IMG/VR virus record: IMGVR_UViG_3300028886_001504
From: a virus
Length of the DNA: 64,000 nucleotides
Reading direction: 5' to 3' (one strand)
Below the pieces are notes generated by a model. That model was not told the origin of the DNA, did not search any database, and saw nothing but the letters and a program-made list of their open reading frames with translations. A program made the position numbers and the translations under genes. Shown one piece after another: positions 5,984 through 63,520 of this stretch (its first letter is position 1; each line of letters starts with the position of its first letter).

Positions 5984-7192
5984 ATGAATGACGTAACATG
6001 TAAAAAACTGTTTAACACCGAAGATGGTAAGCAAAAACGAATGGTTAGTATTTTAAAAATTTTTAGAGAAAACAAGAATGTGGAAGAATATGTAAAAAAC
6101 AGATATTCGGACTCCACATCAATTAAAGAAAGTGTTTATCGTATATTAAATAATATTGAAATTAGGCCACAGTGTAGGTGCGGAAAAGTATTAGAGTTTG
6201 ATTATCCTCTAAACACTTTCCATAAATATTGCTGTTCAAAATGCCAAAATTCAGACCCAGAAAAGATTAAAAAAGACAAAAAAACTAAACTGGATAAATA
6301 TGGGTCAGAAAATTACAACAATTTTGAAAAAATGAAAGAAACTTGCTATGAACGCTATGGAACAACATCTTTCACTAAGACGAATGAGTTTATAGAAAAA
6401 ACAAAAAAGACTAATTTTGAAAAGTATGGTGTAGATTGGTGATTACAGACTGATACTTGTAAAGATGAAACGAAAAAAGTAAAAAAAGAAAAGTACGGTG
6501 ACGAGAACTATAATAATCGAAATAAGGCGAAAAATACATCACTAGAAAGATATGGGGTTGAAAACACTATGCAATGGGAGGGTTCAAAGCAAAAAGAAAA
6601 AGAAACTTGCCTAAAAAGATACGGTGTTACTTCTTATGCTAAGACAGATGAGTTTAAGAAAAAACTAAAAGCCACTTATCTTAAAAAATGAGGGGTTGAC
6701 AATTGCACAAAAAGCGAAGAATGAAAAAACAAATGATATTCAAATGAAGAGTGAGTAAAAGAAAAAGTAGATAAAATCTACAACACTATGTTAAAAAACT
6801 GTAGTTTTTCACATTCTAAACCAGAGCAAGTTATCTTCAATTTCTTAAAAAATGAGTATCCTGATACAATTTATCAATACAAAGAAAAAAGATACCCCTT
6901 CAAATGTGATTTTTATATCCCTTCAAAAGATTTATTTATTGAATACAACGGCTATTGGGCACATGGCGGACACTTTTTTAACGAGAATGATGAAAAAGAT
7001 GTAGAAAAACTGAAATCATGAAAAGAGAAAAGTAAAAAATCTAAACAATACGAAAATGCAATAAAGACATGGACAATAAAAGACCCTTTGAAACTTAAAA
7101 CTTTTCAAGAAAACAATCTTAAACACATAATACTGTGATATGACAGTTTTAAAAATTTAGAGCAGATAAAAGAAATGGTGGACGAATTTTAG
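5984..7192 (+). CDS. homing-endonuclease-like protein: Zn finger, four ~35-aa repeats (ETC..RYG), C-terminal DUF559/Vsr-like nuclease; 7 in-frame TGA read as sense
   Basis: One frame from 5984 to TAG at 7190-7192 with TGA at 6440, 6689, 6722, 6734, 6752, 7019, 7136 and no TAA/TAG; C-terminal CDFYIPSKDLFIEYNGYWAH matches the DUF559 pattern. Confidence 0.6.
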
Positions 7193-12548: not shown

Positions 12549-13757
12549 ATGAATGTAATTACCTATAATGTAGAACTTAACCCAACACCAGAAACTTTCA
12601 ACTACTGGAAGAAAATGCTGGTGTTGTATGCACAGGCATATAATGACTGTGCAAACTACATTGTGGATAAAAAACTTCCTCTTTCCATTAAAACCGTTCA
12701 CAACAAAGTCTACGATAGGCTTCGGAAAGCCTACCAAGAACTCCCTTCACAAGCCGTTATCAGACTTTACAAGGATGTTATTCCTGCGTTCAAGTCTATA
12801 CGCTCGAACAAACAAAAAGACACTGAAACGCCACAGAAGAAAAATCTGTCAATGAGGCTTGACAAACGCCTCTACACAAGAGTGGATAGCGATGGTATTG
12901 TAATCACCTCAGAGGTAGCTAGAAAACGTGTTAAAATACCATTTGTCTTGTATGATAAAGTAACAGAACTTCTAAGCAAATACGAAGTATCTGACCCAAC
13001 GATTTTCATTCGTGATAACAGGTTATACCTGTCAATACCGTTTTCAATCCCAACCATTGTCACCGACAATGACAATGCTGTTGGCATTGACCTTGGCATT
13101 AAACGGTTGTTCGTTACCTCAGAAGGTGTGGCATTTAAAGACAAAGCATATCTTCGTGAGCGAAGGAAGGTGCGGCACAATAAACGCAAACTACAAGAAA
13201 AATCAAATAAAAGTCGCACGGCAAAAAAACACCTTAAGAAAATCAAAAGAAGGGAAGTCAACCTCTCAAAAGATATGTTGCATAGAGCAACTAACGCAGT
13301 TCTCGAATCAACATCAGCATCAGTTCTTGTAGTCGAAGACCTATCGAAGATAAAAACCAAAACCTCCAAAACCAAAGAAGGGTTTAAGAGAACAAAACAC
13401 AATAATTCTTTCTCTCAAGTTCCCGTTAGGGAATTCAGAGACATGTTGGCTTACAAGGCACAGTTACACGGAAAACGTGTTGAAACAGTTTCTCCAACTT
13501 ACACCAGTCAAATGGATTGCCGTACTTCAAATAGAGACGGCAACAGAAAAGGTTGCCGATACTATTGCTCAGACGGAATCGTCTTTGACGCAGATTGGAA
13601 CGCAGCAGCCAATATCGCTATTAGAGCGAACCACCCGTTATCGAATATACTGCCATTGGATGGCACACTTAAATTCCTGAACGGCAGGGCACAGTCAATT
13701 GCCCATACGACGAAGGACACACCCTTTCGTCAAGCCCACGAATTAATTCGTGGGTAG
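12549..13757 (+). CDS. tnpB: TnpB (IS605 OrfB-family RNA-guided nuclease)
   Basis: RuvC-like GIDLGIKRLFV; C-terminal Zn finger CRTSNRDGNRKGCRYYC with DADWNAAANIA. Confidence 0.85.
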   Translation: MNVITYNVELNPTPETFNYWKKMLVLYAQAYNDCANYIVDKKLPLSIKTVHNKVYDRLRKAYQELPSQAVIRLYKDVIPAFKSIRSNKQKDTETPQKKNLSMRLDKRLYTRVDSDGIVITSEVARKRVKIPFVLYDKVTELLSKYEVSDPTIFIRDNRLYLSIPFSIPTIVTDNDNAVGIDLGIKRLFVTSEGVAFKDKAYLRERRKVRHNKRKLQEKSNKSRTAKKHLKKIKRREVNLSKDMLHRATNAVLESTSASVLVVEDLSKIKTKTSKTKEGFKRTKHNNSFSQVPVREFRDMLAYKAQLHGKRVETVSPTYTSQMDCRTSNRDGNRKGCRYYCSDGIVFDADWNAAANIAIRANHPLSNILPLDGTLKFLNGRAQSIAHTTKDTPFRQAHELIRG

Positions 13758-29863: not shown

Positions 29864-30358
29864 ATGTTTATTACCGAAAACGACATTAAAAGAATGGTTA
29901 GAGAATGTGCCAAGAAAGTTCTTAACGAATTTTACGGCACTTTTGATGATACAAGAGATGCACCATGGAACCGTACTGATGATTCAAGGACCAGTAAAGA
30001 ATCAACCGAATGGAACGAATTTTATTGTGATTTAACTGATTTAATTAATCAGAATCCACAATACGCAGAAATGCTCCAACCTTTACAAGAAACCCCAGGC
30101 GATTGGACTTCTTGTAATGTGGGTAAAGTCACATTATGGTATGATGTAACTGATTCTGATTTTGAACAAGACGAAGATGGATATGTTTTTGCAAACAATA
30201 GCGAAATAGACACAGATAGCGTAGAAATAGAACTATCGAAAGACAATCAATATCGCTCAACATTTCCTCCAGAACTAATTCAACTGCTCGAAAACGAAGT
30301 ACAAACCGAATTTTCTGAAAACAGAGATTGATTAATAAGTCTATTAAACGATAATTAA
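29864..30358 (+). CDS. small acidic protein, paralog A (N-terminus ITENDI..V.E..KK); 1 in-frame TGA
   Basis: Track ORF ends at TGA 30329-30331; reading through gives 9 more codons to a TAA that sits directly before a terminator hairpin. Confidence 0.45.
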
Positions 30359-32851: not shown

Positions 32852-33439
32852 ATGAGTAAACAAGTTAATATAACCGAAAATGACATCATAAAATTAGTTA
32901 CAGAATCTGTCAAAAAACTCATCAAAGAAGACATATATAATGCCTGGAAGCCTATGGAATGTGATGATGAAAATTATTCAGAAATTACAGAAACTAAGCA
33001 ATTAAGAAATATCATCAGAAGGATGGTTAAAGAGGCTTTTGACATGAGTTACGGCGCACCTACTGGAATCGAACAACCAAAGCCAGCAGGTGGTGTTAAT
33101 ACTAATACCAATGAAAAACTTGACAGCGCACATGACATAAGAAAAAAAATCAGACAGTGGGCAAAAGCACATGAAAAAGGGCTTGGAAAAGAAAAGAGTG
33201 GTGGCAGAATGAATAAATCAAAACGTTCACTCGTTATTACATGACTCAAAAGGAATGATGTAAACTGCGCTGAAATTATGAGAAAACTTTGGCATCCAGC
33301 AAAAGAGGATGAGGATAGTGCAAGAAGTTATTTCTACAAATGTAGGGATGGTAAACTAAACGATTCTGGTGTACCATACAGATTCACGGATGAGGAAATC
33401 AATGCGCTATATAGAATTAAATCAGAAGCATCAGCATAA
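32852..33439 (+). CDS. small protein, paralog B (shares N-terminus with 29864 gene); 1 in-frame TGA
   Basis: Track ORF ends at TGA 33242-33244; same frame continues 64 codons to TAA 33437-33439, which abuts a terminator. Confidence 0.5.
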
Positions 33440-38936: not shown

Positions 38937-40502
38937 CTAAAACTTGTTATCGTTTAACCTTTGCCTAATATCGTTAAGCGTTTCTTCTTTAACCAGTTTA
39001 CCATTTTTGAAAACTGGCTCCATCAATGTGTCTTGAATAGATTCATCCCAAGTAAGGCCATCAACATATGTTACCTTTTTGTTCCACTTATCGCGCCAGA
39101 TAACGGAACAGCAACCCTTCTGTGATTTCTTAAAGTTACCACCGCCAGCATCGCGGTCAGTCTTAGGGTCTTTGAATACAGGAAGTTTTTCGACCTTTCC
39201 ATCTTCTGAGGTAAACTCGGCATAGACGGCTTTAATAGCCATGGAAAGTGTGTCCCTGGTAAAAGGCTTCAGTTCGCCTTCTTCCTCAATACAATGCATA
39301 GAGAAAGAACCAACACCAAGGCTTACATTCTGTGCTGCGAAACCATTATCCATCAAAATTTGATAGATTTGTTCTGCCCTCTGAACTGTGATTGAGTCAC
39401 CATAAAGCGCTTTTACATGAGGGTTAAGTACCTTATAGCCTTTACTATTGGTAGTACCACCAAAGATTTTCCAAAGTTCAAAAACGGTTTCTGTGACAAC
39501 TTTCACACAGTCACCACTATCACCACGAACAAGGAAACAACCATTGTGATTTAGAATCTCTTCCTTAAGTGTAGGGAGAATGTTCTTTACAACATTCCAG
39601 TAATCATAACTATCACACACACAAGAGAAAGATGTGTTTGGATAATATTCTGTGAGAAGTTTTTTCAAGAAAATCCTTTCTCTATAAGGGTCAATGTCTG
39701 TATATTCGTAGTCGGGATTTTCTGCAATATCATATGCAGAATTACTACACATAACAAAATGTTCTGTGGAAGCAGCACCAAATCCAACTGGTTCTTTCTC
39801 ACAATCACAATTGTACATTTGCTCAAGATAAGGAATTACTGGAACGGTTGCTGTGTTCAAGAAAGACAAACACCAAGCAGAACCTGCTTTCAACGCAGCA
39901 TCAAGTCCTTGGTCACCTCTGAAATCAAAGTTTCCCAAGGCTCTATTTCTTGGAACATTATCGTCACAAGTTTTTCCGTAGTAATAGTTTACAATCTCAC
40001 GATATGTATGGCCAACGGTTGCACAAACCATTGGATACCACAATTCTGCTGAAATAAGTGATTCCAAAGCCTGACCAAGCCATGCAAAATCAGGATGGGT
40101 ATTTGTAATACCAAAGATAGGACAATGAATTGGAACAATCATACCCTCTGGCAACGACCAAACTTCAATTGGAAGATAACCAAGTTTATGAAGATTCCTT
40201 ACCTTCTCGAAATCACAAATACCCTTTCCCAATGTAAGTTCAATGTAATGCTTATACTCCTCAACAACTTCATCTTCTGGTCTGTTGAAGAAATTATCAT
40301 TAAAATAATCAATGAGATAGGTTTTACAAAATGCTTGCAAACCGAAGTTTACAACACCATTCCACCTCTTGATGCGTGACATTCGTGCTGTAAAGTAACT
40401 AACAGATTTAGTCATACCTTTTGGAAGCAACTCGCAATGAATCGCTTTGTAGAAATCTTTGAGAAGTAAAGCGTTAGTTTTCATGTTAGTCGTTATTTTC
40501 AA
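38937..40502 (-). CDS. nadV: nicotinamide phosphoribosyltransferase
   Basis: 521 aa; VRGDSGD motif; NAMPT-like throughout. Confidence 0.8.
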   Translation of the reverse strand: MKITTNMKTNALLLKDFYKAIHCELLPKGMTKSVSYFTARMSRIKRWNGVVNFGLQAFCKTYLIDYFNDNFFNRPEDEVVEEYKHYIELTLGKGICDFEKVRNLHKLGYLPIEVWSLPEGMIVPIHCPIFGITNTHPDFAWLGQALESLISAELWYPMVCATVGHTYREIVNYYYGKTCDDNVPRNRALGNFDFRGDQGLDAALKAGSAWCLSFLNTATVPVIPYLEQMYNCDCEKEPVGFGAASTEHFVMCSNSAYDIAENPDYEYTDIDPYRERIFLKKLLTEYYPNTSFSCVCDSYDYWNVVKNILPTLKEEILNHNGCFLVRGDSGDCVKVVTETVFELWKIFGGTTNSKGYKVLNPHVKALYGDSITVQRAEQIYQILMDNGFAAQNVSLGVGSFSMHCIEEEGELKPFTRDTLSMAIKAVYAEFTSEDGKVEKLPVFKDPKTDRDAGGGNFKKSQKGCCSVIWRDKWNKKVTYVDGLTWDESIQDTLMEPVFKNGKLVKEETLNDIRQRLNDNKF

Positions 40503-41178
40503 TTTTTACACCAGATTCGTTTTCGTATTTTGTGTTCATTGCTGACAAGTCACCAGTAAGTGTAGCAGCAAATGCCATTGTTTTTACATCAGAATCACCA
40601 ACAGTGCAACGATATGAACACAAAGAAGAGTTTACTAAGTCATAAGATTCACCGATATTTGAACGGCTTGAATAGCCTCTGTTAACAAAACCGTAATCCT
40701 TTGCTGCCGTAGCATCAGTAATATCGGTTCCAAGATACAAAAATGTCCAAGAATACTTTTCTTCTTGATGTTTAATCATTTCACGTACCTTGTCAATTGT
40801 GTAATCTTTTGAATGGTTTTCACAGCCATCAGTCATGATAACAACAAGATTCTTTTCTGGGCGTTCTTCTTCCTTCATGTTACGAAGCCATTCACCAACC
40901 TTATCAATTGCATATCCAATACCATCGTTCATTGCGGTAAGGCCATCAGGAGAATAGTTGTTTTTGTCAAGATATTCTACCTCATTTACATCCTTACCAA
41001 TGAACACCTCTTTTACGTTGGTTGCAAACTTAAACAACGAAATAGCGCAAGAACCGTCTTTAACGGCTTTCTGCTCATCAATAACTTTTTTAAAACCACC
41101 GATAACATCTGACTGTGATGGAAACATACTGCCAGATTCATCTACAACAAATACGACATGTACAAAATTTTCTTTCAT
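40486..41178 (-). CDS. vWA domain protein
   Basis: MIDAS VVDESGSM. Confidence 0.65.
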   Translation of the reverse strand: MKENFVHVVFVVDESGSMFPSQSDVIGGFKKVIDEQKAVKDGSCAISLFKFATNVKEVFIGKDVNEVEYLDKNNYSPDGLTAMNDGIGYAIDKVGEWLRNMKEEERPEKNLVVIMTDGCENHSKDYTIDKVREMIKHQEEKYSWTFLYLGTDITDATAAKDYGFVNRGYSSRSNIGESYDLVNSSLCSYRCTVGDSDVKTMAFAATLTGDLSAMNTKYENESGVKIENND

Positions 41179-41210
41179 TTTAATCTCTTTTTACTCTTTT
41201 ATTTTCCATA

Positions 41211-41218
41211 CAAAGATA
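41211..41218 (-). promoter_or_regulatory. Bacteroidota-type -7 element
   Basis: CAAAGATA upstream of minus start 41178. Confidence 0.45.
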
Positions 41219-41243
41219 TACATTTTCGCGGAAAAAACCAAAA

Positions 41244-41507
41244 TTATTTATCTTTCTTCAAAAACTTTTCTGCCACCCACATAGCCACATAACAGCCTAC
41301 GAAATTGGTTGTTGCTTGTACGAGGATTGCTGTCTTTAAATCCACTTCTGAAATGAATTTGATAACAATGGCAGAGAATGTATAACAAATACAGTTTGTC
41401 AGAGAAGCCGTGAACTTGGTTGATTTAATAACCAAAATGCTTCTGAAAATGTGAAGGAACACATTAACAAAAGCAATAATGATATAAACAATTAAACTAA
41501 GCGACAT
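41244..41507 (-). CDS. small membrane protein
   Basis: 87 aa, hydrophobic. Confidence 0.4.
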   Translation of the reverse strand: MSLSLIVYIIIAFVNVFLHIFRSILVIKSTKFTASLTNCICYTFSAIVIKFISEVDLKTAILVQATTNFVGCYVAMWVAEKFLKKDK

Positions 41508-41518
41508 TTGTTTAGATT

Positions 41519-42403
41519 TTAATTAGGCCACATTTTAACAACTTGAATATAAGGATGATTACCACTATAGATTGAATCTGTTGTGGTTAAACTCTCTACA
41601 GTTCTATCATTAAGACATTTAATGAAAGTACCTTTTTCTTCATCAAGAACACTGTTTTCTGTATGTGTGGCATAGGCGTAAATTTTCTTAAAACCAAGTT
41701 CCTTCAACTTCAATGCTGAATAATACATTGTTCCACCATAAGAAATAATATCATCAACCATAAGAACAGAATGACCTTTGACTTCTTCTTTCGAAACTTT
41801 GTTTCCGTTTTCATCATGTACATTCAACCCAAGAATTTTTCCTGTTTCCCAATCACGCTCTTTCACACCATATATTTTTTTAGCAAGAGAAAAATAATCC
41901 TTGTAACGCTTCATCGCTCCCTCATCAGGAAAATAAATGTACTGACCATTCTCCTTAGCCTTCATGTCCCACGCTTTCAACTTTATAGACATATCAACAA
42001 CCCGCAAATTATTGAACAACGCACAAGCAACATTAGAATGAGGGTCTGCTACATATACATTGTCAAAATTCAAAGAATTGATTATTTCCGCAAAATACTT
42101 AAGCGTAAAAACATCTTCTCCGCTCTTAACCCTATCCTGTCTTGCATTTGGACAATAAAGCATGGATAAATTGATAGGGTTCTTTTTAGTGAACGTATTT
42201 TGTATATGCCTTGTTAAAAAATAGATGGTTACAAGTTCTTCATCGTTTTCATAGACCCACCTAATGTCAAACTGAAAATATTTATCAGTGTCAGTATAAG
42301 ATTTTCCAAAAGGAAAAAGTACTCTATCCCTATTGAATTTTAGTAACTGACTCCCATCAGGAAAATGCTCGATGGGAAACTTAACACCATTTAGATAAAT
42401 CAT
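41519..42403 (-). CDS. prs: ribose-phosphate pyrophosphokinase-like (PRPP synthetase)
   Basis: PRPP-binding VLMVDDIISYGGT; N-terminal FPDGSQLLKF. Confidence 0.6.
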   Translation of the reverse strand: MIYLNGVKFPIEHFPDGSQLLKFNRDRVLFPFGKSYTDTDKYFQFDIRWVYENDEELVTIYFLTRHIQNTFTKKNPINLSMLYCPNARQDRVKSGEDVFTLKYFAEIINSLNFDNVYVADPHSNVACALFNNLRVVDMSIKLKAWDMKAKENGQYIYFPDEGAMKRYKDYFSLAKKIYGVKERDWETGKILGLNVHDENGNKVSKEEVKGHSVLMVDDIISYGGTMYYSALKLKELGFKKIYAYATHTENSVLDEEKGTFIKCLNDRTVESLTTTDSIYSGNHPYIQVVKMWPN

Positions 42404-42407
42404 AGTT

Positions 42408-42971
42408 CTATCTGTTTACGATATTAATCTGGCACATTTGCATAGTTTCCAAGGCTGCTTCGTGAGACTCTGGTGTGACACCAGCACAACAATCAGCATA
42501 CACATTGATAGTTGCAGTATCATAAAGTTTGGCTTTTGCTAAAAGAACGTTTGATACAACACAAATGTCTGTGCAGAAGCCAACAAAGTCCACGGTTACA
42601 TCATCATTACAAAATGAGTCCATAAACAACCTATCAGCCAAATCATATGAACCAAAAGTAGGCTTTTCAAGGTATTCAATATGCACACCCCTTGCTTTTG
42701 CGTTGTCAAGCGCTTCCTTAATTGAAGGTTCAACCAACCAGCCATTGGTGTATTTTACACAGTGAGTAACAGGAAGTTTCTTACCCTCATTGGTTTCGAG
42801 ATAATCCGTGTCATGAGTGTCCAAGGTAACATAAATAGCCTTACCTTCGAACTCATTAATCTTCTTTACGATATTAGGAACGGCCTTGATAGCCTCCTCG
42901 TTTCGCAATGCCCCCGTGATAAAATCGTTTTGCGTATCAATTACGCAGAGAATTACTTTTTTCATTTCCAT
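42408..42971 (-). CDS. pncA: isochorismatase-family hydrolase, nicotinamidase-like
   Basis: CVIDTQNDF motif. Confidence 0.6.
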   Translation of the reverse strand: MEMKKVILCVIDTQNDFITGALRNEEAIKAVPNIVKKINEFEGKAIYVTLDTHDTDYLETNEGKKLPVTHCVKYTNGWLVEPSIKEALDNAKARGVHIEYLEKPTFGSYDLADRLFMDSFCNDDVTVDFVGFCTDICVVSNVLLAKAKLYDTATINVYADCCAGVTPESHEAALETMQMCQINIVNR

Positions 42972-43021: not shown

Positions 43022-43033
43022 AAACTATTTATT
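43022..43033 (+). promoter_or_regulatory. orphan AAACTATTTATT motif with no downstream + ORF
   Basis: Followed ~15 nt later by a terminator hairpin. Confidence 0.35.
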
Positions 43034-43048
43034 GAAAATAATTAAAAA

Positions 43049-43078
43049 AGCCATAAGAGAAATCCTATGGCTTATTTG
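43049..43078. terminator. bidirectional hairpin agccata...tatggct
   Basis: U-runs on both strands. Confidence 0.5.
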
Positions 43079-43168
43079 TTTAACAATATCCTTACTGTTT
43101 TTTTAACCATCCGCTTTATGTCGGATTCTGTTTTTTGATATTAACAACTTTTAAGCATCTACAACTGT

Positions 43169-44047
43169 TCAGCCAGATGGAATACCGTCTGCACCTGTTG
43201 TCCAACCTGACATATTTGAACTTTTAACAAAAGTTCCTGTGTTTCCTACACCTTCTACCCATTCAGTTGTACTGGATGGAAAGTATCTGGTTGCGAGGCA
43301 TTTGATGTAATTTAAACTAGCGCAATCACAAAACATTTGATAATAACAAGAACTCAATATGGTTGTTGCGGGTAATTCAGGTGCTTTTGTTAATGATGTA
43401 CAACTTCTAAACATATATTGATAGCAAGCTTGTTCTAAAGTAGTTGCGGGTAATTCAGGTGCATTAACGAGGCTAGTGCAATTATAAAACATCCCATAAT
43501 AACAGCAATAAGTTAAAGTAGTGGCTGGCATAATTAATTTACTAGCATCTGTTAACCCAGTACAATAAATAAATAACCCATTAAAATTATACATATCTTG
43601 TAGTGTTGTAGCGGTAGCAAAACCAGCGCTACTAATCATACTCATTATGTTACCTTTTACTTTAAATTGACATGTTGTACCGTAAAAACTGTTAGACTGA
43701 CTTTCTCTATTGTCGCCATATGTTGTATTATCCCCCCTAAACTGAACAGTATCACCCGAAACAACGCTTATAGATACGCCTTCTGTATTAGCTGTTATAC
43801 TTGTCCATTCTCCGTTATTCTTCTTGTATTCAATTGTTTTTGGTGTACAATTTTGTGCTATTCATATAATATTACCATCGCCAGTTACTTCAAATGTAAG
43901 TGGTGTGCACAGAAGTTTTTCATAACCTGATTTGTTATAATCAACCCCTTTCCCTTCGGTATAAGAGACTCAAGGTTCTAAATAACTATTATCTCTTGCC
44001 TCCGTATAAGCAGATTGTGATTCAAAGTAATGCGTGTATTTTCCCAT
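43169..44047 (-). CDS. BspA-type leucine-rich-repeat protein; 2 in-frame TGA
   Basis: Track ORF 43169..43645 continues upstream in frame to ATG 44045-44047 across TGA at 43862-43864 and 43970-43972; repeats ..ATTL..CY.YMF..CTSL..APELP. Confidence 0.5.
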
Positions 44048-44058
44048 AACTATAATTT

Positions 44059-44071
44059 TCTCTATAAATAG
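44059..44071 (-). promoter_or_regulatory. AACTATTTATAGA promoter-like motif (minus orientation)
   Basis: Reverse complement of ctctataaatagtt, 12 nt upstream of ATG 44047. Confidence 0.4.
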
Positions 44072-44089
44072 TTGATACGCTACAAAACA

Positions 44090-44791
44090 CTAGAATTTAA
44101 TCATGAAGGTTCCACCGTGTATATGGTTTTTGTTTGTGTAATCATACTGGTATAAGTATGAGAATCCGTATTTATCTTCGAAGAACATACCAACCTGACC
44201 GACAACAGATGGCATTGTTGTAATACCAGCACTTACAAACGGACTAAATTTCTTTAGCATCATATTATCATACTCTATCTGTTTAATTACAGGTACAAAT
44301 GTATAGTCAAGATGCCTCAGTTGGTTGTTTGAGATAATTATGTCAACATCACAACGGCCAAGTGTATCTTCATTAAATAATGTTTGGTAATATTCTCTTT
44401 CTTTAACCCAGTCTTTTGCTATTGCGGTAAATATTTTCAATGAGTCATCCTTTGTAGTTGGGTTAATATAAATCAAACTATCTTTTGTTGGAAAAAGTTC
44501 ATCAAAGAGACCATTTGCGACACAATATTTAATTAAATCACCAGTATCAACCTCTGCTGGTATTCTAACCTCTACAGGATATGGTACAGGAACTTCTTGT
44601 TTGACAGTATCCCCAGGAATGTAGATTGGTGGTTTTTCACCAGGCATTTTAATGGTTTTCCTTCCAATGAAGAAACCAACGCCTAATAGTAATATTGCTA
44701 AAGCGATAATCCCGCCTATTTTTCAATTGTTTCTTTGTGTGGTGTTGACATTTATTACTGTTGCGCCACTATTTGTCATATCATTTTCCAT
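44090..44791 (-). CDS. N-terminally membrane-anchored protein; 1 in-frame TGA
   Basis: Track ORF 44090..44647 extends in frame to ATG 44789-44791 through TGA 44723-44725, adding a TM helix IGGIIALAILLLGVGFFIG. Confidence 0.45.
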
Positions 44792-44829
44792 AACTAATCT
44801 TTTTTAAATAAATACTTTACAAAAAGAAA

Positions 44830-44852
44830 GCCGTAATCACTTACGGCTCTCT
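44830..44852. terminator. hairpin agccgtaa...ttacggct
   Basis: 3' of dnaK. Confidence 0.45.
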
Positions 44853-44869: not shown

Positions 44870-46759
44870 TTACTGTTTTGGTACACCACTAAACGGGTCA
44901 AAATTACCACCAGCAAAAGGATTGAAATCTGTTCCACCGCTGGTTTGTCCAGTGTTTCCAGCAGAATAAAGTCTACTTGAAATAGGTGTCCACTTATCTG
45001 TATTCTCTTTGATAAGTTCCTTGATTCTTTCAATGTTCTTTTCTTTTACTGCATCAGCCAGTTTCTCATTAATTTCCTTGATACTGTTTTTCTCATCTTC
45101 CGTGAGTTTTTCATCAAGGTCTTTAAGCATCTTTTCATTGGAGAAAACCGTTGCATCACCTGCATTCAAGACATCTACTTCTTCTTTTGCTTTCTTATCA
45201 TTTTCCGCGTTTTCCTCTGCCTCTTTCTTCATCCTTTCAATCTCTGCATCAGAAAGGCCAGAAGACGCTTCAATTCGAATATCTTGCGATTTACCAGTTG
45301 CCTTATCAACAGCAGATACTTTCAAGATACCGTTAGCATCAATATCAAAAGTAACCTCAATCTGCGGAACACCTCTTGGTGCTGGCATGATTCCATCAAG
45401 ATGGAAGATACCAATCTGTTTGTTGTCCTTTGCCATAGGTCTTTCACCTTGCAGCACTTTGATTTCAACACCTGGTTGGTTATCAACTGCCGTTGTGAAA
45501 ATCTGGCTTTTCTTCACAGGAATAGTGGTGTTAGCCTCAATCAATTTGGTGAATACGGCTCCATTAGTTTCAATACCAAGTGAAAGTGGTGTTACATCAA
45601 GCAACAGAACGTCAGTGACATCACCAGCAAGGACACCGCCTTGTATTGCAGCACCCATAGCAACTGCCTCATCGGGATTTACACCCTTGTTAGGCTCCTT
45701 ACCAAAAATTTGTTTTACCGTCTCTTGTATTTTTGGTATTCTTGTGGAACCACCAACAAGAATTACTTCATCAATTTCGTTAGTTGTTAAATCTGCGTCT
45801 TTAATTGCTTTTTCACAAGGTTCAATTGTGCGTTTAATGATATCTTCGCACATTGTTTCGAACTTTGCCCTTGTTAAAGACATTACTAAATGTTTTGGAA
45901 CACCGTCAAGTGCTGTGATATAAGGAAGATTGATTTCAACGGATGAGTTGGAAGACAATTCAATCTTTGCTTTTTCAGCCGATTCCTTCAATCTCTGGAG
46001 AGCCATAGGGTCTTTTCTCAGGTCAATGTTTGCATTGTCTTTTGCAAACTCGTCTGCCATCCAGTCAATGATTTTCTGGTCAAAATCATCACCGCCAAGA
46101 TGCGTGTCACCATTAGTTGAAAGCACTTCGAACACACCGTCACCAAGTTCGAGGATGGAAATGTCAAACGTGCCTTGTCCTAAGTCAAAAACCGCAATTT
46201 TACTGTTTTCTTTCTGTTTATCAAGACCATAAGCCAAAGCAGCAGCCGTTGGTTCATTAATAATACGTTTCACATCAAACCCAGCAATTGTACCAGCCTC
46301 TTTTGTTGCTTGCCTTTGACTATCAGAGAAATATGCAGGTACTGTGATAACAGCCTCTTTTACTTCTTCACCAAGATAATCCTCTGCACACTTCTTAAGA
46401 TATTGAAGAATACTTGCTGAAATCTCTTGTGGTGTGTACAATTTACCTTCAATATCAACACAAGGTACATTGTTACTGTTTTTCTTAACATCAAAACTTG
46501 AACGTTTGATTTCTTCTGTTACTTGTTCATATGTCTCACCCATAAATCTCTTGATGGAAGAAACAGTGTTTTTCGCATTTGTAATTGCTTGCCTTTTAGC
46601 AGCATCACCAACCTTTTTATCTTTCCCATTGAAACCAACGACAGAAGGTGTTGTTCTCCCCCCCTCTGAGTTTACAATGATAACGGGTTTACCACCTTCC
46701 ATAACAGCTACTGCTGAACGGCCCGTGCCAAGGTCAATGCCAATAATTTTTTTACTCAT
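44870..46759 (-). CDS. dnaK: molecular chaperone DnaK (Hsp70)
   Basis: [22 protein letters not shown], full 629 aa Hsp70. Confidence 0.95.
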
Positions 46760-55746: not shown

Positions 55747-56442
55747 CTACGGTTTATCTTTGGTTTCACCAGTGTTTCTATATACATTAAATTGCGGAAA
55801 CTGCATAAAGTCGTTTTCTTCGTCTTCTATTTTATCATCGGTTTGTTTTTCACCTAAAACAAGATGTTTATACGTCCTTTCGAGTCACTTCTTGAAATCA
55901 TCAACTGACATTTCATGTTTAGCATAGTTACATTTAGCACAACAAGGCACTACGTTGTCTAATGTGTAGCCTTTACTAGAATCCACTCTATCTATACCAT
56001 TGTGTGCTCATGGTTTTTGTGTTTTTTGCATATATTGTAATTCATACTCTCTAACTTCTGGTGATGCACCACAATAATAACAATCTTGTTCCATTATCTC
56101 TATAAACTCTTCAAATGTTAAATCAAAGTCTAGTCCTCTTTTTGACGCACCTGCTCTATAATCCTTTAATAGTCTATTTTTCAATCCAGAATGTACAATA
56201 CCCTGACTTTTCCTCAAAGCTGTTTCTGTTGATGTTTTCTTGTTTGTACACGAATGACATCCGAAACGGTTGACTAATGTTTTTTCTTTCGCATGAAATT
56301 CATTACCACAATCACATCTACATTCCCACAGTCAAACGTTTTTACCTTTTACTGTTGATTTTCTACAATAATTCTTAATGAGGATAAATCTATCATTAAT
56401 CCTATCCCCTTCCTTGTAATTTGTTTTGTGTTTTGGTCCCAT
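55747..56442 (-). CDS. HNH homing endonuclease; 3 in-frame TGA
   Basis: ATG 56440-56442 to TAG 55747-55749 in one frame with three TGA; Zn finger WECRCDCG; HNH core HNGIDRVDSSKGY...NVVPCCAKCNYAKH; track fragment 56008..56217 is in the same frame. Confidence 0.6.
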
Positions 56443-61289: not shown

Positions 61290-61991
61290 TTACTTCTCCA
61301 GTTTATTGGGACTGGCGTTTCCTTTTGAGTTTGTTTTCCTTTTCGTTCTTGTCGATTTTCCAGTATTCAATGCTGAATAATTTACTGTCATAGCATGGTG
61401 ATTCGGGCATAAAACTTGAAGATTTTCTTCTTTACTATTGTTTGCATCACCATCAATGTGGTGTATTTCAACTATTGGTCTTCCACTCTTAGGATTTACT
61501 CAGTTACATCCACAAATTTCACAAGAACAATTTGTTTTTTCTAACATGTACCTTCTAACAAATTGTGATAGTTGTCCTACCCCTCTATTTCCACTACACT
61601 CTCCACTTTTTCATCTTAGAATATACTGTTTATATTCATACTCTCTTTGACAATGTGAACCACAAAATTTTGTGCTTTTTCTCAAATCCGTTATCTCTCC
61701 TCCACAATTCAAACACACTCTTTCATGTTTTTGTTTCCTCACCCTCTTCTTGTTATTATAAGATGCAGAACAGGAATGTGAGCAAAATAATTTCTGGTCC
61801 TTTTCAAGTTTTTTACCACAAACAATGCAATACTTAGTATTATTTAGTTTAATTGTTTCCAGTCAATCTTTTCAATCAACACCGTTTTCTTTTAAATAAA
61901 GTTTTACTTTTTCTCTGTTAGTGTAATTTGCTTTTCCATAAAGTTTTCTAGATACGTCATTTAACGACTTGCAGTCTTTCAATATTTCCAT
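61290..61991 (-). CDS. HNH homing endonuclease; 4 in-frame TGA
   Basis: ATG 61989-61991 to TAA 61290-61292 in one frame with four TGA and no TGG; Zn fingers CIVCGKKL...CSHSC; HNH core VEIHHIDGD...LQVLCPNHH. Confidence 0.6.
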
Positions 61992-62018: not shown

Positions 62019-62065
62019 TCTCAAAAAGCCAAAATGTGTATTCGAAATTAAAGTTTTTAAATTAG

Positions 62066-62137
62066 AGCCTCCTGTCGGAGTTGAACCAACATTTCAAGAT
62101 TACAAATCATGCGTAATAACCGTTATACGAAGGAGGC
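62066..62137 (-). tRNA. tRNA-Thr (anticodon UGU), one U-U mismatch in the anticodon stem
   Basis: Manual fold: acceptor GCCTCCT/AGGAGGC, loop TTTGTAA, T-loop GGTTCAACTCC. Confidence 0.45.
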
Positions 62138-62247
62138 AATACTACGGAAAACTTTATTTTTTGTCCGCTATTTTTGGTGCAGATATTAATAAATACTTGC
62201 TGTTTGTTTTCCTACAGTAAACTTATGAAAAAAGAACTAATACTTTG

Positions 62248-62290: not shown

Positions 62291-63520
62291 TTATTCTTCA
62301 AATGCTGCCAAACCGTCTGCTTCTTTTGATGCTTCTTGTCTTAGTATAACACCAAGTTCGTCAATGTTGATTGTTGCAGTATATTGTACTTTCTCCTTAT
62401 TGATTGTTCTTTCAAGTAAGAACAAAGGCTCGTTATTAACCCAGAAGAAAGAATCTTTTTGTTTTGTTCTGATATCAAGACCAGTTGCACAAAGATATGC
62501 TACATTGGAAAGTTTGAAAATTTTCTGTTTCATATTCTCTTCTTTCTTAAAATCATAGAACATCTTGAACTGTGCCAATTTATCAGGGTCATTCTGCAAT
62601 TCAACATCTTGTAATTTTGCAGCATATGAGTCAGAGACTTTGTAAAGCATTCTACCTAAAGAATCTGGAATTCTATCAATATCACCATCTTCTGTTACAC
62701 CATAGAAGATAGCTTCTTGGTCATCGACCCTTGAAAGCATGTTTCTGATGGAATATCCTGGTAATTCAACTTGTGTGGAAGGGTCTTCTGCATTTGTTCT
62801 GTATTTAATGTTTCTTGGTACATATTCACCAGTTTCATCGTCACCACTCCACTCGGTATCCGTTGCAATACCAAAATTTGCTGGTTCACCAATATACTTA
62901 TAGGTAGGACCATTTCTTTTAGGAGTATTGTGCCACACTTCATTACCGTCAGCATCTAAATCTTTATATTGAATACCCAATTCATCGTAATATTTGGGGT
63001 CAATCTTCGCAGTCATATCGTTATATGCTTGCGTGTTTCTTTCCTGTGCTTTTGCGTAGCCAGTTTGTCCTTGCCAATGAAGCCTATATTTGGTAAGTTT
63101 GATTACATATTTGTAGATTGCTTTGTTAAAAGCACGTTGTCCTTTATATAAACGGCCAGTTGGATTATCCCATTCGGTGTTTTTTGATTTGTCCATAAAA
63201 TCAACATATCTTTGTCGTGCTCTATCTGTCACATCTTCTGATACCATGGCATAGTCCATGTCATTCTCTACACCAAAATCACCAGCCATTGCACTCATTT
63301 TGTTATAGAGGTCTTCATTTGGATATTGACCAGGAATAGTATAAAGTTGAATATATCCTAATCTGACAAACTGTCCCTCTTGAATTTGTACTGTTGACAA
63401 GAAGTTTACCAAATCATTTGCCATAATCTGTTTTGATTCATTCAGTACTTGCCCCCATCCAGTTCTTGGGCTATTCATTCTCTCAATAAGAGATTTCATT
63501 TCGTTTAACTGTTGCTTCAT
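62291..63520 (-). CDS. hypothetical protein
   Basis: 409 aa ORF. Confidence 0.5.
   Translation of the reverse strand: MKQQLNEMKSLIERMNSPRTGWGQVLNESKQIMANDLVNFLSTVQIQEGQFVRLGYIQLYTIPGQYPNEDLYNKMSAMAGDFGVENDMDYAMVSEDVTDRARQRYVDFMDKSKNTEWDNPTGRLYKGQRAFNKAIYKYVIKLTKYRLHWQGQTGYAKAQERNTQAYNDMTAKIDPKYYDELGIQYKDLDADGNEVWHNTPKRNGPTYKYIGEPANFGIATDTEWSGDDETGEYVPRNIKYRTNAEDPSTQVELPGYSIRNMLSRVDDQEAIFYGVTEDGDIDRIPDSLGRMLYKVSDSYAAKLQDVELQNDPDKLAQFKMFYDFKKEENMKQKIFKLSNVAYLCATGLDIRTKQKDSFFWVNNEPLFLLERTINKEKVQYTATINIDELGVILRQEASKEADGLAAFEE

What the first reader, a model, noticed from the sequence alone, without database searches (positions are those of the whole stretch)
43169..44791. Adjacent TGA-class genes encoding a BspA-type LRR protein and a type-II membrane-anchored protein: candidate late/host-interaction module
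Both genes need TGA read-through and both sit behind ACTATTTAT-type motifs. The first has BspA-like leucine-rich repeats, which suggests a surface/adhesin or receptor-binding role. The second gains an N-terminal transmembrane anchor only when TGA is read as sense; it could be spanin-like, a holin accessory or a superinfection-exclusion protein. If the TGA class is the late class, these are the only late-like proteins in the window.
Basis: inference. Interest (0 to 1): 0.65.

Follow-up and report, generated by a model that had tools for sequence, protein, structure and literature searches.

The report
Opal-recoded late-class phage envelope gene pair
Two neighbouring genes of a very large gut or rumen phage can only be made when the stop codon TGA is read as tryptophan; they share a promoter-like motif that precedes tail-fibre genes in related phages, and they encode a leucine-rich-repeat binding protein and a membrane-targeted envelope protein of unknown function.

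Summary
Both minus-strand genes need TGA read as Trp. All four in-frame TGAs lie at Trp positions conserved in homologues. The "stop" of the LRR gene at 43169 is also a conserved Trp, so that gene ends at TAA 43151.

Gene 1 (43151-44047) has an N-terminal beta-sandwich, three clear 26-residue BspA/TpLRR-type repeats and a conserved cap. It lies in a ~1 kb promoter-bearing cassette (43081-44083) that is absent from a close relative.

Gene 2 (44090-44791) belongs to a family of at least 477 cluster representatives. It has a conserved N-terminal hydrophobic segment, a Pro-rich linker and a beta-rich C-terminal domain that usually ends in ...YKF, like outer-membrane proteins.

Seven of about 84 genes in the window carry in-frame TGA (20 TGA against 16 TGG). 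Six of them have an A-N-TATTTAT box within 70 nt upstream, against 2 of 77 other genes (p = 5e-7). The other genes use only TGG. In related phages the same box precedes collagen-like tail-fibre genes, so a late class is plausible. Both families recur beside fibre genes; gene 2 relatives also sit by endolysin genes.

The pair is not a conserved module, and the protein functions are inferred. This is a new example of known phage stop-codon recoding. The promoter link and the gene 2 family appear to be undescribed.

The parts
43151..44047 (-). Gene 1: a 298-aa BspA/TpLRR-type LRR protein. Residues ~1-135 form an N-terminal beta-sandwich domain. Three clear 26-aa repeats start at residues 173, 199 and 225. 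A conserved C-terminal cap follows. TGA = Trp at codons 26, 62 and 293; the true stop is TAA at 43151-43153.
44064..44072 (-). ACTATTTAT box 25 nt upstream of the gene 1 ATG, with TTTTG about 10 nt further upstream. Candidate phage-specific (late) promoter element.
   Evidence: The same box precedes two of three LRR paralogues in L004, the LRR_5 gene in L073 and fibre genes in L068 and L071.
43081..44083 (-). LRR cassette of about 1.0 kb (promoter box + gene 1 + 70 nt), present here and absent from the close relative L058, where 52 nt occupy the site.
   Evidence: blastn of L058 against the window: L058 1-1368 matches window 45439-44084, and L058 1421-2043 matches window 43080-42454.
44090..44791 (-). 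Gene 2: a 233-aa envelope-directed protein. It has a 24-aa N-terminal tail, a hydrophobic segment I25-G43 followed by the conserved GRKT, a Pro-rich stretch (8 Pro in residues 49-80), two helices, and about 8 beta strands (residues ~132-231), ending ...GGTFMIKF. TGA = Trp at codon 23.
44808..44816 (-). AGTATTTAT box 25 nt upstream of the gene 2 ATG, directly after the DnaK terminator hairpin.
   Evidence: A TATTTAT box sits at the same place upstream of gene 2 homologues in 10 of 15 loci in one listing, plus L071.
43048..43073 (-). Intrinsic-terminator-like hairpin (AAGCCATAGGATTTCTCTTATGGCTT + T-run) that closes the gene 2 / gene 1 unit. It is shared with L058, where it follows gene 2 directly.
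44825..44852 (-). Hairpin + T-run after the DnaK stop (GAGAGCCGTAAGTGATTACGGCTTTCTTTTT). It separates DnaK from gene 2. Coordinates are approximate.
   Evidence: Read from the sequence. The equivalent hairpin is conserved in L002, L056 and L058. The terminator scan did not list it.

Best explanation
The two ORFs are intact genes of a huge phage. The source contig is 0.2-1 Mb, and the gene content and relatives point to a Bacteroidota host in an animal gut or rumen.

They belong to a small, sharply separated gene class: 7 of about 84 genes in the window. In this class UGA is decoded as Trp (20 TGA against 16 TGG). Six of the seven genes have an A-N-TATTTAT box within 70 nt upstream of the ATG. 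The box is A(C/G)TATTTAT about 25 nt upstream for both genes of the finding. All other genes use only TGG. About 14% of them end in TGA, and many sit behind host-type TAnnTTTG boxes.

The most likely mechanism is a double lock. These genes are transcribed from a phage-specific promoter, probably late, because in relatives the same box precedes collagen-like tail-fibre genes. Their mRNAs can be translated in full only once a UGA-decoding tRNA-Trp is active. That tRNA is not in this window and is presumably encoded elsewhere in the genome.

Gene 2 is a conserved envelope protein. It is exported or anchored by its N-terminal hydrophobic segment, and it has a Pro-rich linker and a C-terminal beta-domain with an outer-membrane-protein-type terminus (...YKF). 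My leading guess is that it acts at the cell envelope late in infection, as a spanin-like outer-membrane step of lysis. Receptor masking or superinfection exclusion is the main alternative.

Gene 1 is a BspA/TpLRR-type ligand-binding protein without a secretion signal. It lies in a ~1 kb promoter-bearing cassette, inserted here downstream of gene 2 (or lost from L058). It is most likely a fibre-associated or virion-associated binding protein.

Shown: TGA = Trp, the two-class split, the motif association, the protein architectures, the insertion, and the neighbourhoods in other phages. Inferred: late timing, the suppressor tRNA, membrane topology and both protein functions.
For: TGA = Trp. W is conserved at all four sites. 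The TGA is retained in relative L058. No in-frame TAA or TAG occurs. All seven TGA genes end in TAA or TAG.

Two classes. TGA genes have 20 TGA and 16 TGG; the remaining genes have about 275 TGG and 0 TGA. Eleven of 77 of them end in TGA. The motif association has Fisher p = 4.7e-7. Host-type TAnnTTTG occurs upstream of 18 standard genes and of no TGA gene.

Motif conserved and linked to late functions. It precedes gene 2 homologues in 10 of 15 loci. It also precedes the 870-aa Collagen + Peptidase_S74 fibre gene in L071, the 1102-aa collagen-like ORF in L068, the small 3-TMD genes, LRR paralogues in L004 and the LRR_5 gene in L073.

Gene 1. LRR_5 fold. BFVD matches include phage BspA-family LRR proteins and a collagen-repeat protein. 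Three paralogues lie within 9 kb in L004. Cassette boundaries are defined.

Precedent. Borges et al. (bioRxiv 10.1101/2021.08.26.457843) describe standard-code early genes and recoded late genes. In TGA-recoded Agate phages the most strongly recoded families are an intron endonuclease, a tail protein and a TM protein of the lysis cassette.
Against: - No expression data exist. 'Late' rests on analogy and on the motif preceding fibre genes in relatives.
- No suppressor tRNA is in the window; ARAGORN and Rfam find only tRNA-Ser, tRNA-Cys and tRNA-Thr.
- The motif is not exclusive to TGA genes. A TnpB-like gene (12549-13757) and a 409-aa gene (62291-63520) have it without TGA. One HNH gene (55747-56442) has TGA but only a one-mismatch box 35 nt upstream of the ATG.
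- My gene list was derived by hand from ORF tables.
- In the window and most huge-phage relatives, gene 2 sits beside DnaK and NAD-salvage genes, not beside lysis genes. Only two loci (L064, L057) link it to endolysins.
- K/R counts on the two sides of the hydrophobic segment are similar (2.8 and 3.3), so the topology is unresolved.
- Neither gene 1 nor gene 2 matches any of 50,697 deposited phage genomes by tblastn.
- No virion or binding evidence exists for the LRR protein.
Confidence: 0.6

Rival explanations
1. The in-frame TGAs are inactivating mutations. On this view the two ORFs are decaying pseudogenes, and only the downstream pieces (158 aa and 185 aa) are made, if anything is.
For: Under the standard code both ORFs are broken. 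Most genes in the window treat TGA as compatible with a stop. No suppressor tRNA is in the window.
Against: All four TGAs fall exactly on conserved Trp codons, including the apparent stop of gene 1, after which the conserved TVxDA tail continues in frame to TAA. No TAA, TAG or frameshift interrupts either gene. The gene 2 TGA is kept in a relative whose DNA is 82% identical. Five further genes show the same pattern, 20 TGAs in all.
Confidence: 0.03
2. The whole genome, and its host, uses genetic code 4. There is then no special class: TGA simply happens to be rare in most genes.
For: TGA = Trp is clearly used. TGA-terminated ORFs are followed by TAA or TAG after a median of 5 codons, against 8.5 for other genes.
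Against: The split is too sharp. About 275 TGG and 0 TGA occur in 77 genes, against 20 TGA and 16 TGG in 7 genes. Eleven of 77 genes have TGA as their first stop at family-typical lengths, for example RmlA. The backup-stop difference is not significant (p = 0.06). Promoter types separate with the codon classes. In code-25 phages of code-25 hosts about 90% of genes carry in-frame TGA (Borges et al.).
Confidence: 0.07
3. The TGA/ACTATTTAT class marks horizontally mobile cassettes (homing endonucleases, a TnpB-like gene, LRR paralogues) exchanged among recoded phages, rather than a temporal class. The promoter and codon usage travel with the cassette and say nothing about timing.
For: Four of the nine or ten motif-bearing genes are endonuclease-like or transposase-like. 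The LRR gene is a recent ~1 kb insertion that carries its own box. Several members lie on the opposite strand to their neighbours.
Against: Gene 2 is not mobile. It keeps its place after DnaK and its TATTTAT box across many phages, and it carries TGA only in the window's closest lineage. The box also precedes conserved fibre genes. The two readings are compatible: mobile genes could adopt the late signals.
Confidence: 0.2
4. Gene 2 is a secreted small outer-membrane or periplasmic protein with a cleaved signal peptide. It masks a receptor or excludes superinfecting phage, comparable to lambda Lom or T5 Llp beside their fibre or RBP genes. It is not a lysis protein.
For: A G39|F40 site with small residues at -1 and -3 is common in the family. 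The terminus is OMP-like. The gene is adjacent to fibre-like genes in 8 loci: collagen-like in L062, L063, L065, L068 and L071, and LRR in the window, L064 and L073. That Lom and Llp lie next to tail or RBP genes is from my own knowledge.
Against: The family is unusually conserved (71% identity between the window and L057, an otherwise unrelated contig) while the neighbouring fibre genes vary. Receptor-matched blockers usually co-vary with the RBP. In L064 it occupies the position directly after the endolysin.
Confidence: 0.25
5. Gene 1 acts inside the infected cell, as an LRR scaffold that binds a host or defence protein, rather than on the virion or the cell surface.
For: It has no signal peptide or hydrophobic segment. 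It is small, with no recognisable fibre stalk or virion-attachment domain. Tandem paralogue arrays with variable repeat number are also typical of effector or anti-defence families.
Against: A relative sits in a late region of L064, upstream of an endolysin and 4.8 kb upstream of a P22-like portal gene. The LRR fold also occurs in phage proteins with collagen repeats. Gene 1 shares its promoter box with fibre genes.
Confidence: 0.3

Closest known systems
Stop-codon-recoded phages with standard-code early genes and recoded late genes: TGA-recoded 'Agate' and 'Jade' clades, TAG-recoded Lak and crAss-like phages (Borges et al., bioRxiv 10.1101/2021.08.26.457843)
   Same: Only a subset of genes carries in-frame TGA, read as Trp. 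The metabolic and nucleic-acid genes use the standard code. Endonuclease genes and a transmembrane protein are among the recoded genes, as reported for Agate phages. The DnaK and an endonuclease-like gene of the window resemble those of Prevotella Lak phages and other huge phages.
   Different: Only about 8% of genes in this window are recoded, against 26-71% reported per clade; the window may simply be an early-type region. The recoded genes are tied to a defined A-N-TATTTAT box. The word 'promoter' does not occur in that preprint, so it reports no such link. The suppressor tRNA, release factor and clade membership could not be examined from this window.
BspA / TpLRR-type leucine-rich repeat proteins (Pfam PF13306 LRR_5; T. 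pallidum TpLRR 6mlx, pneumococcal PcpA 4cp6, Bacteroides BACOVA_01565 4fdw)
   Different: Bacterial BspA-type proteins are secreted surface proteins. This family has no signal peptide. It has its own conserved ~135-aa N-terminal beta-sandwich and a ~55-aa C-terminal cap ending in WTVQDA. It occurs as promoter-bearing cassettes and tandem paralogues on phage-like contigs. The window protein itself scores below Pfam thresholds.
Phage spanins: i-spanin/o-spanin (Rz/Rz1) and the unimolecular spanin T1 gp11 (Kongari et al. 2018, PMC6139136)
   Same: Gene 2 has an N-terminal hydrophobic segment like an i-spanin. Its periplasmic part is beta-rich like the u-spanin. It has a Pro-rich stretch. One homologue lies directly after an endolysin gene (L064), where no o-spanin-like lipoprotein ORF was found.
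   Different: It has no lipobox, no C-terminal TMD and no coiled coil. Its outer-membrane contact would come from an OMP-like beta-domain, an arrangement not described for any spanin. There is no sequence match to spanin PHROGs. L064 also has a 122-aa TM + coiled-coil protein with a weak Rz-like hit (E = 0.009).
Small 8-stranded outer-membrane beta-barrels (OmpX/Ail/Lom, OmpA and OprF N-domains, PagL, NspA)
   Different: There is no significant sequence match to any OMP family. The first strands are rich in charged residues. An ~85-aa conserved region with invariant D, W, R and N residues precedes the barrel. The N-terminal segment is longer than a typical signal peptide. Soluble barrels (VtrC, ToxS) score about as well.

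Membership tests
Partially stop-codon-recoded phage (TGA -> Trp, code 4 in late genes) | In-frame TGA at positions where homologues have Trp | tested here: met
   Four of four sites in the two genes. One of the five alignable sites in the endonuclease-like gene aligns with W of a 34%-identical Lak homologue; the other four align with Y, I or V.
Partially stop-codon-recoded phage (TGA -> Trp, code 4 in late genes) | Only a subset of genes is recoded; the others are compatible with the standard code | tested here: met
   Seven of about 84 genes carry TGA; the rest have only TGG and 11 of 77 end in TGA.
Partially stop-codon-recoded phage (TGA -> Trp, code 4 in late genes) | Phage-encoded UGA suppressor tRNA (and/or release factor or TrpRS) | tested here: not met
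   Not found in this 64-kb window: only tRNA-Ser(gct), tRNA-Cys(gca) and tRNA-Thr(tgt). The rest of the 0.2-1 Mb contig could not be read. Borges et al. detected such tRNAs in only 35% of code-4 genomes.
Partially stop-codon-recoded phage (TGA -> Trp, code 4 in late genes) | Recoded genes are the late (structural or lysis) genes | tested here: inconclusive
   The window has no recognisable structural genes. Indirect support: the shared promoter box precedes fibre genes in relatives, and homologues lie in late regions of L064 and L057.
BspA-type LRR (Pfam LRR_5, PF13306) | Significant match to the PF13306 profile | tested here: not met
   No Pfam hit at E <= 1 for the window protein. Many homologues do carry PF13306, and the related L073 protein scores 2.4e-60.
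BspA-type LRR (Pfam LRR_5, PF13306) | Repeats of ~23-26 residues forming a TpLRR-type right-handed solenoid | tested here: met
BspA-type LRR (Pfam LRR_5, PF13306) | Secreted or surface-anchored (signal peptide, sorting domain) | tested here: not met
   No hydrophobic N-terminus (maximum KD19 0.97). The conserved N-terminus MGKYxHxFET is shared across the family.
Spanin (i-/o-spanin pair or u-spanin) | i-spanin: N-terminal TMD plus a periplasmic coiled-coil domain | tested here: not met
   A TMD-like segment is present. The rest is Pro-rich with two short helices and 8 strands, with no coiled coil.
Spanin (i-/o-spanin pair or u-spanin) | u-spanin: N-terminal lipoprotein signal (lipobox Cys) plus a C-terminal TMD | tested here: not met
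   No lipobox and no C-terminal TMD; the protein ends ...GGTFMIKF. Definitions from PMC6139136.
Spanin (i-/o-spanin pair or u-spanin) | Located in a lysis cassette with holin and endolysin | tested here: inconclusive
   Met in L064 (directly after Amidase_3) and loosely in L057 (2 kb from a holin-like gene and GH108). Not met in the window or most huge-phage loci, where the neighbours are DnaK and NAD-salvage genes.
Spanin (i-/o-spanin pair or u-spanin) | Needed for outer-membrane disruption at lysis (complements an Rz/Rz1 defect) | not testable with these tools
   Requires a genetic complementation experiment.
Outer-membrane beta-barrel protein | C-terminal beta-signal ending in an aromatic residue, usually Phe | tested here: met
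   107 of 137 family members end in F; YKF is the most common ending; K and F are near-invariant.
Outer-membrane beta-barrel protein | Even number of amphipathic transmembrane strands forming a closed barrel | tested here: inconclusive
Outer-membrane beta-barrel protein | Cleavable Sec signal peptide | not testable with these tools
   The hydrophobic segment is 19 residues, long for a signal peptide. A possible G|F cleavage site exists. No signal-peptide predictor was available.

The most novel reading that the evidence does not exclude
The gene 2 family is a previously unrecognised single-chain envelope-spanning lysis protein of Bacteroidota phages. An uncleaved inner-membrane signal anchor would be joined by a Pro-rich linker to a BAM-inserted outer-membrane beta-domain. 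Functionally this would be a spanin with an architecture unlike Rz/Rz1 or T1 gp11. Its production would be held back by two locks: a phage-specific late promoter (A-N-TATTTAT) and an in-frame UGA that needs the phage's suppressor tRNA.
Probability: 0.15. Interest if true: 0.8.

Novelty: new member of a known kind. Interest (0 to 1): 0.55.

Why it matters
Partial stop-codon recoding in gut phages is thought to act as a timer for late genes, but it has mostly been described gene by gene. Here the recoded genes of a huge phage are tied to one short promoter-like box that is conserved across related phages and also precedes tail-fibre genes. That gives a concrete, testable link between a transcriptional class and a translational lock, and a simple sequence rule for finding the class in unannotated huge-phage genomes.

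The work also defines two widespread but unannotated protein families:
- a phage LRR cassette family with more than 7,500 members;
- an envelope protein family with at least 477 cluster representatives and an OMP-type C-terminus.

Both are mis-called or truncated by standard gene callers when recoded; the 94% relative of gene 2 is stored as a 199-aa fragment. Phages of Bacteroidota largely lack recognisable spanins, so gene 2 is a candidate for the missing outer-membrane step of lysis.

Tried and rejected
- Pfam and PHROGs on both window proteins gave nothing usable.
- tblastn of both proteins against 50,697 deposited phage genomes found no match.
I used the window fragment after the TGA (gene 2) and a homologue, P0065 (gene 1), instead.
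- AFDB fold libraries were unavailable.
- A profile of 63 gene 2 relatives against PDB sequences gave only non-significant hits. Pfam on all 63 members gave only scattered weak hits.
- T4 holin T or antiholin-like idea: the architecture is similar, but there is no sequence or fold match.
- T9SS C-terminal-domain idea: no Por_Secre_tail hit in any of the 63 members.
- Selection for backup stops after TGA stops: median 5 against 8.5 codons, p = 0.06, not significant.
- Walking beyond the window failed. The end sequence is not in IMG/VR, and the large source contig was not returned. The suppressor tRNA, endolysin and structural genes of this genome could therefore not be examined.
- Source names for homologues: none on record.
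- Search for o-spanin-like lipoprotein ORFs near gene 2 and its relatives found none, apart from a 111-aa lipoprotein-like ORF beside a Peptidase_C1 gene in L061.
- The T4 late promoter TATAAATA is the reverse complement of part of the box. The orientation relative to the genes is opposite, so I do not equate the two.
Full report
**What is there**

The finding covers two adjacent minus-strand ORFs. They lie between a DnaK gene (44870-46759) and an NAD-salvage block. That block holds an isochorismatase/PncA-like gene (42408-42971), a phosphoribosyltransferase gene (41519-42403), a VWA gene (40486-41178) and a NAMPT gene (38937-40484). The rest of the window encodes NAD-dependent DNA ligase, RNA ligase, a CCA-adding enzyme, RlaP, Thg1-like and rhamnose-pathway enzymes, a TnpB-like protein and three tRNAs. 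I recognised no structural genes.

An exact protein look-up places the window on a 0.2-1 Mb contig. Its DnaK gene resembles those of 480-735 kb uncultured phages and of Prevotella Lak phages. I therefore treat it as part of a huge phage. The host is probably from Bacteroidota; this is an inference from the relatives, from the host-type TAnnTTTG boxes, and from relatives that carry TonB-dependent receptor genes.

**Check of the observation: TGA is Trp**

Gene 2 (44090-44791) has one in-frame TGA, at codon 23. In an alignment with 16 homologues that position is W (NWWK or NGWK). All full-length homologues have the hydrophobic segment that follows, and Met49 is not conserved as a start. The closest relative (L058, protein 94% identical) is stored in the database as a 199-aa fragment. 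Its DNA shows the same TGA at the same place.

Gene 1 has TGAs at codons 26 and 62, both at near-invariant Trp positions (EPWVSYT, GNIvW). The window continues in frame as W-TVVDA-TAA. Gene 1 is therefore 43151-44047, 298 aa, with three TGA and three TGG codons.

These results rule out pseudogenes. They do not fit selenocysteine either: every site is a conserved Trp, though I ran no SECIS search.

**The class is real and wider than the finding**

Across the window I counted seven genes with in-frame TGA:
- the two genes of the finding;
- two HNH-type endonuclease genes (55747-56442 and 61290-61991);
- a 402-aa endonuclease-like gene on the plus strand (5984-7192, seven TGAs);
- two small plus-strand genes (29864-30358 and 32852-33439).

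Together they have 20 TGA and 16 TGG codons, and all end in TAA or TAG. The remaining 77 or so genes have about 275 TGG and no TGA. Eleven of them end in TGA.

Six of the seven TGA genes have A-N-TATTTAT within 70 nt upstream of the ATG, usually at about -25. Only 2 of the 77 others do (Fisher p = 4.7e-7). Eighteen standard genes, and none of the TGA genes, have the Bacteroidota-type -7 box TAnnTTTG upstream. The exact sites also share an upstream TTTT(G) element about 8-10 nt before the box.

Two caveats apply. The 9-mer with one mismatch is not enriched overall; only its placement is non-random. The gene list is my own, derived from ORF tables.

A test for extra backup stops after TGA stops was not significant (p = 0.06).

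**Is the class late?**

There are no expression data, but the box is conserved in related phages.
- It lies 10-20 nt before the ATG of gene 2 homologues in 10 of 15 loci, usually straight after the terminator hairpin of the preceding DnaK gene.
- In L071, three consecutive genes each have their own box (CCTATTTAT before the first, exact ACTATTTAT before the other two): the gene 2 homologue, a ~100-aa protein with three TM segments, and an 870-aa protein with Collagen and Peptidase_S74 domains, which is a tail-fibre architecture.
- In L068 the same holds for the small TM gene and an 1102-aa collagen-like ORF.
- The box also precedes LRR paralogues in L004 and the LRR_5 gene in L073.
- It also precedes endonuclease genes that lie inside or beside DnaK in L056, L062, L063 and L065.

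Tail fibres are late genes in known phages, so a late promoter is the most economical reading.

This fits the model of Borges et al.: early genes in the host's code, and late genes unreadable until a suppressor tRNA is made. In TGA-recoded Agate phages the families they found most strongly recoded were an intron endonuclease, a tail protein and a TM protein of the lysis cassette. No suppressor tRNA is present in the window. The rest of the genome could not be read.

**Gene 1**

More than 7,500 database proteins match gene 1. Many of them carry PF13306 (LRR_5, the BspA type), although the window protein itself stays below Pfam thresholds.

There is no signal peptide.

Homologues occur as lone genes, often on the opposite strand to their neighbours, on phage-like contigs. 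On one 352-kb contig they form a three-copy array within 9 kb. They also appear in rumen and gut MAGs binned to many phyla.

In the window the gene lies in a ~1.0 kb cassette (43081-44083) with its own box. L058 aligns on both sides of it and has only 52 nt at that site. The hairpin terminator at 43048-43073 is the original terminator of gene 2. L056, L059 and L003 likewise go straight from gene 2 to the isochorismatase gene. Gene 1 and gene 2 are therefore not a conserved pair.

**Gene 2**

A profile search found 477 cluster representatives, nearly all 110-235 aa and most 185-235 aa. The shared plan is:
- a short N-terminal tail;
- a ~19-residue hydrophobic segment followed by G-R/K;
- a Pro-rich stretch;
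- a conserved region with invariant polar residues (D82, D116, D127, W128, R132, D142-T143, N156);
- a Gly- and aromatic-rich C-terminal region ending in F in 107 of 137 sequences, typically YKF.

That an aromatic-x-Phe terminus is the hallmark of outer-membrane beta-barrel proteins is from my own knowledge.

K/R counts on the two sides of the hydrophobic segment are similar, and a G|F cleavage site is possible. Anchor versus cleaved signal is therefore unresolved.

**Neighbourhoods of gene 2 relatives**

- The gene lies directly downstream of a chaperone gene, as a separate transcription unit. The chaperone is DnaK in the window and eight other loci, and GroEL in a more distant group. I cannot explain this.
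- Downstream there is either the NAD-salvage block (window lineage, L001, L003, L056, L058, L059), or a small protein with three TM segments followed by a collagen-like fibre gene (L062, L063, L065, L068, L071), or an LRR_5 gene (L073).
- In the 59-kb contig L064, which has a P22-like portal gene, the order is: LRR homologue of gene 1 (BLASTP 2e-21) - 76-aa ORF - 122-aa TM + coiled-coil protein (weak Rz-like hit) - Amidase_3 endolysin - gene 2 homologue. I found no o-spanin-like lipoprotein ORF there.
- In the 22-kb, TGA-recoded contig L057, a 71%-identical gene 2 homologue lies 2 kb from a holin-like gene and a GH108 endolysin, both with in-frame TGA.

These contexts fit a late, envelope-directed role. 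My leading guess is a spanin-like or other lysis-accessory function. Receptor masking or exclusion is the main alternative. The formal spanin definitions (lipobox, C-terminal TMD, coiled coil; PMC6139136) are not met, so gene 2 is at most an analogue of a spanin, not a member of the family.

**Verdict**

The sequence observation is confirmed, with one boundary correction.

Recoding, the motif link, the LRR type and the conserved N-terminal hydrophobic segment all hold. A late, host-surface-related role is plausible on comparative grounds. The two genes are not a conserved module, they are not the only members of the class in the window, and their functions remain inferred.

The phenomenon is a new instance of known partial stop-codon recoding in phages. 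I found no description of three things in the material I could search: the tight coupling to a conserved promoter-like box, the cassette nature of the LRR family, and the gene 2 family with its OMP-type terminus.

Noticed in passing
window 44870-46759 with 44090-44791; L003, L056, L058, L059, L062, L063, L065, L068 (DnaK); L074-L080 (GroEL): Gene 2 relatives sit immediately downstream of a chaperone gene, separated from it by a terminator hairpin. The chaperone is DnaK in one phage group and GroEL (Cpn60, preceded by a GroES-like ORF in L074) in a more distant group. I have no explanation for this.
   Followed up: partly
L062 5625-5930, L063 5633-5947, L065 5639-5950, L068 4673-5008, L071 4687-4986: A ~100-aa protein with three predicted TM segments and a KWIGxDGLLNxET motif follows the gene 2 homologue and precedes a long collagen-like (GXY)n fibre ORF. 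It has its own ACTATTTAT-type box in at least L063, L068 and L071. It is a possible holin, with no Pfam or PHROG match.
   Followed up: partly
window 5984-7192 (+), 55747-56442 (-), 61290-61991 (-): Three endonuclease-like genes (two HNH-type; one with repeated KYG/RYG modules and a C-terminal nuclease-like motif) carry 7, 3 and 4 in-frame TGAs and sit behind the ACTATTTAT-type box. One lies inside the tRNA cluster. Lak-phage homologues of the first carry in-frame TAG instead.
   Followed up: partly
window 29864-30358 (+) and 32852-33439 (+): Two small plus-strand genes behind exact ACTATTTAT boxes share an N-terminal motif (ITENDI[KI]..V.E..KK.L). Each has one TGA, at codon 156 of 164 and at codon 131 of 195; in the second, read-through adds 64 residues. 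A shared N-terminal signal, such as a packaging or targeting peptide, is conceivable.
   Followed up: no
window 12549-13757 (+): A TnpB/IS605 OrfB-like gene (PHROG transposase, 5e-48) lies on the opposite strand behind an exact ACTATTTAT box with the TTTTTGG upstream element, but has no TGA.
   Followed up: no
window 38937-42971; L001 11133-16531; L003 10702-16160: An NAD-salvage block: NAMPT, a Prs-like phosphoribosyltransferase and a PncA-like isochorismatase. In relatives it also holds a TonB-dependent receptor, a NadR-like protein and a PnuC transporter. In the window only an 87-aa membrane ORF (41244-41507) occupies that position. Host-type TTTG/TAnnTTTG promoter boxes precede the isochorismatase gene.
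   Followed up: partly
window 43024-43032 (+): An exact ACTATTTAT on the plus strand, between the gene 1/gene 2 terminator and the isochorismatase gene, has no downstream ORF. It overlaps the candidate -33 TTTG of the isochorismatase promoter on the other strand and may be a chance match.
   Followed up: no
window 62189-62197 (-): AGTATTTAT lies about 50 nt upstream of tRNA-Thr (62065-62137), so the tRNA cluster may be driven by the same promoter type.
   Followed up: no
L062 1508-4850, L065 1541-4850: In these relatives the DnaK gene is split by a ~1.1 kb endonuclease gene that has its own ACTATTTAT box. This is probably an intron or intein-type insertion in an early gene.
   Followed up: no
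L005 18692-20073; L061 4971-6320: In two loci the gene 2 homologue is convergent with a papain-family (Peptidase_C1) gene. In L061 a 111-aa lipoprotein-like ORF (6323-6658) follows it.
   Followed up: no
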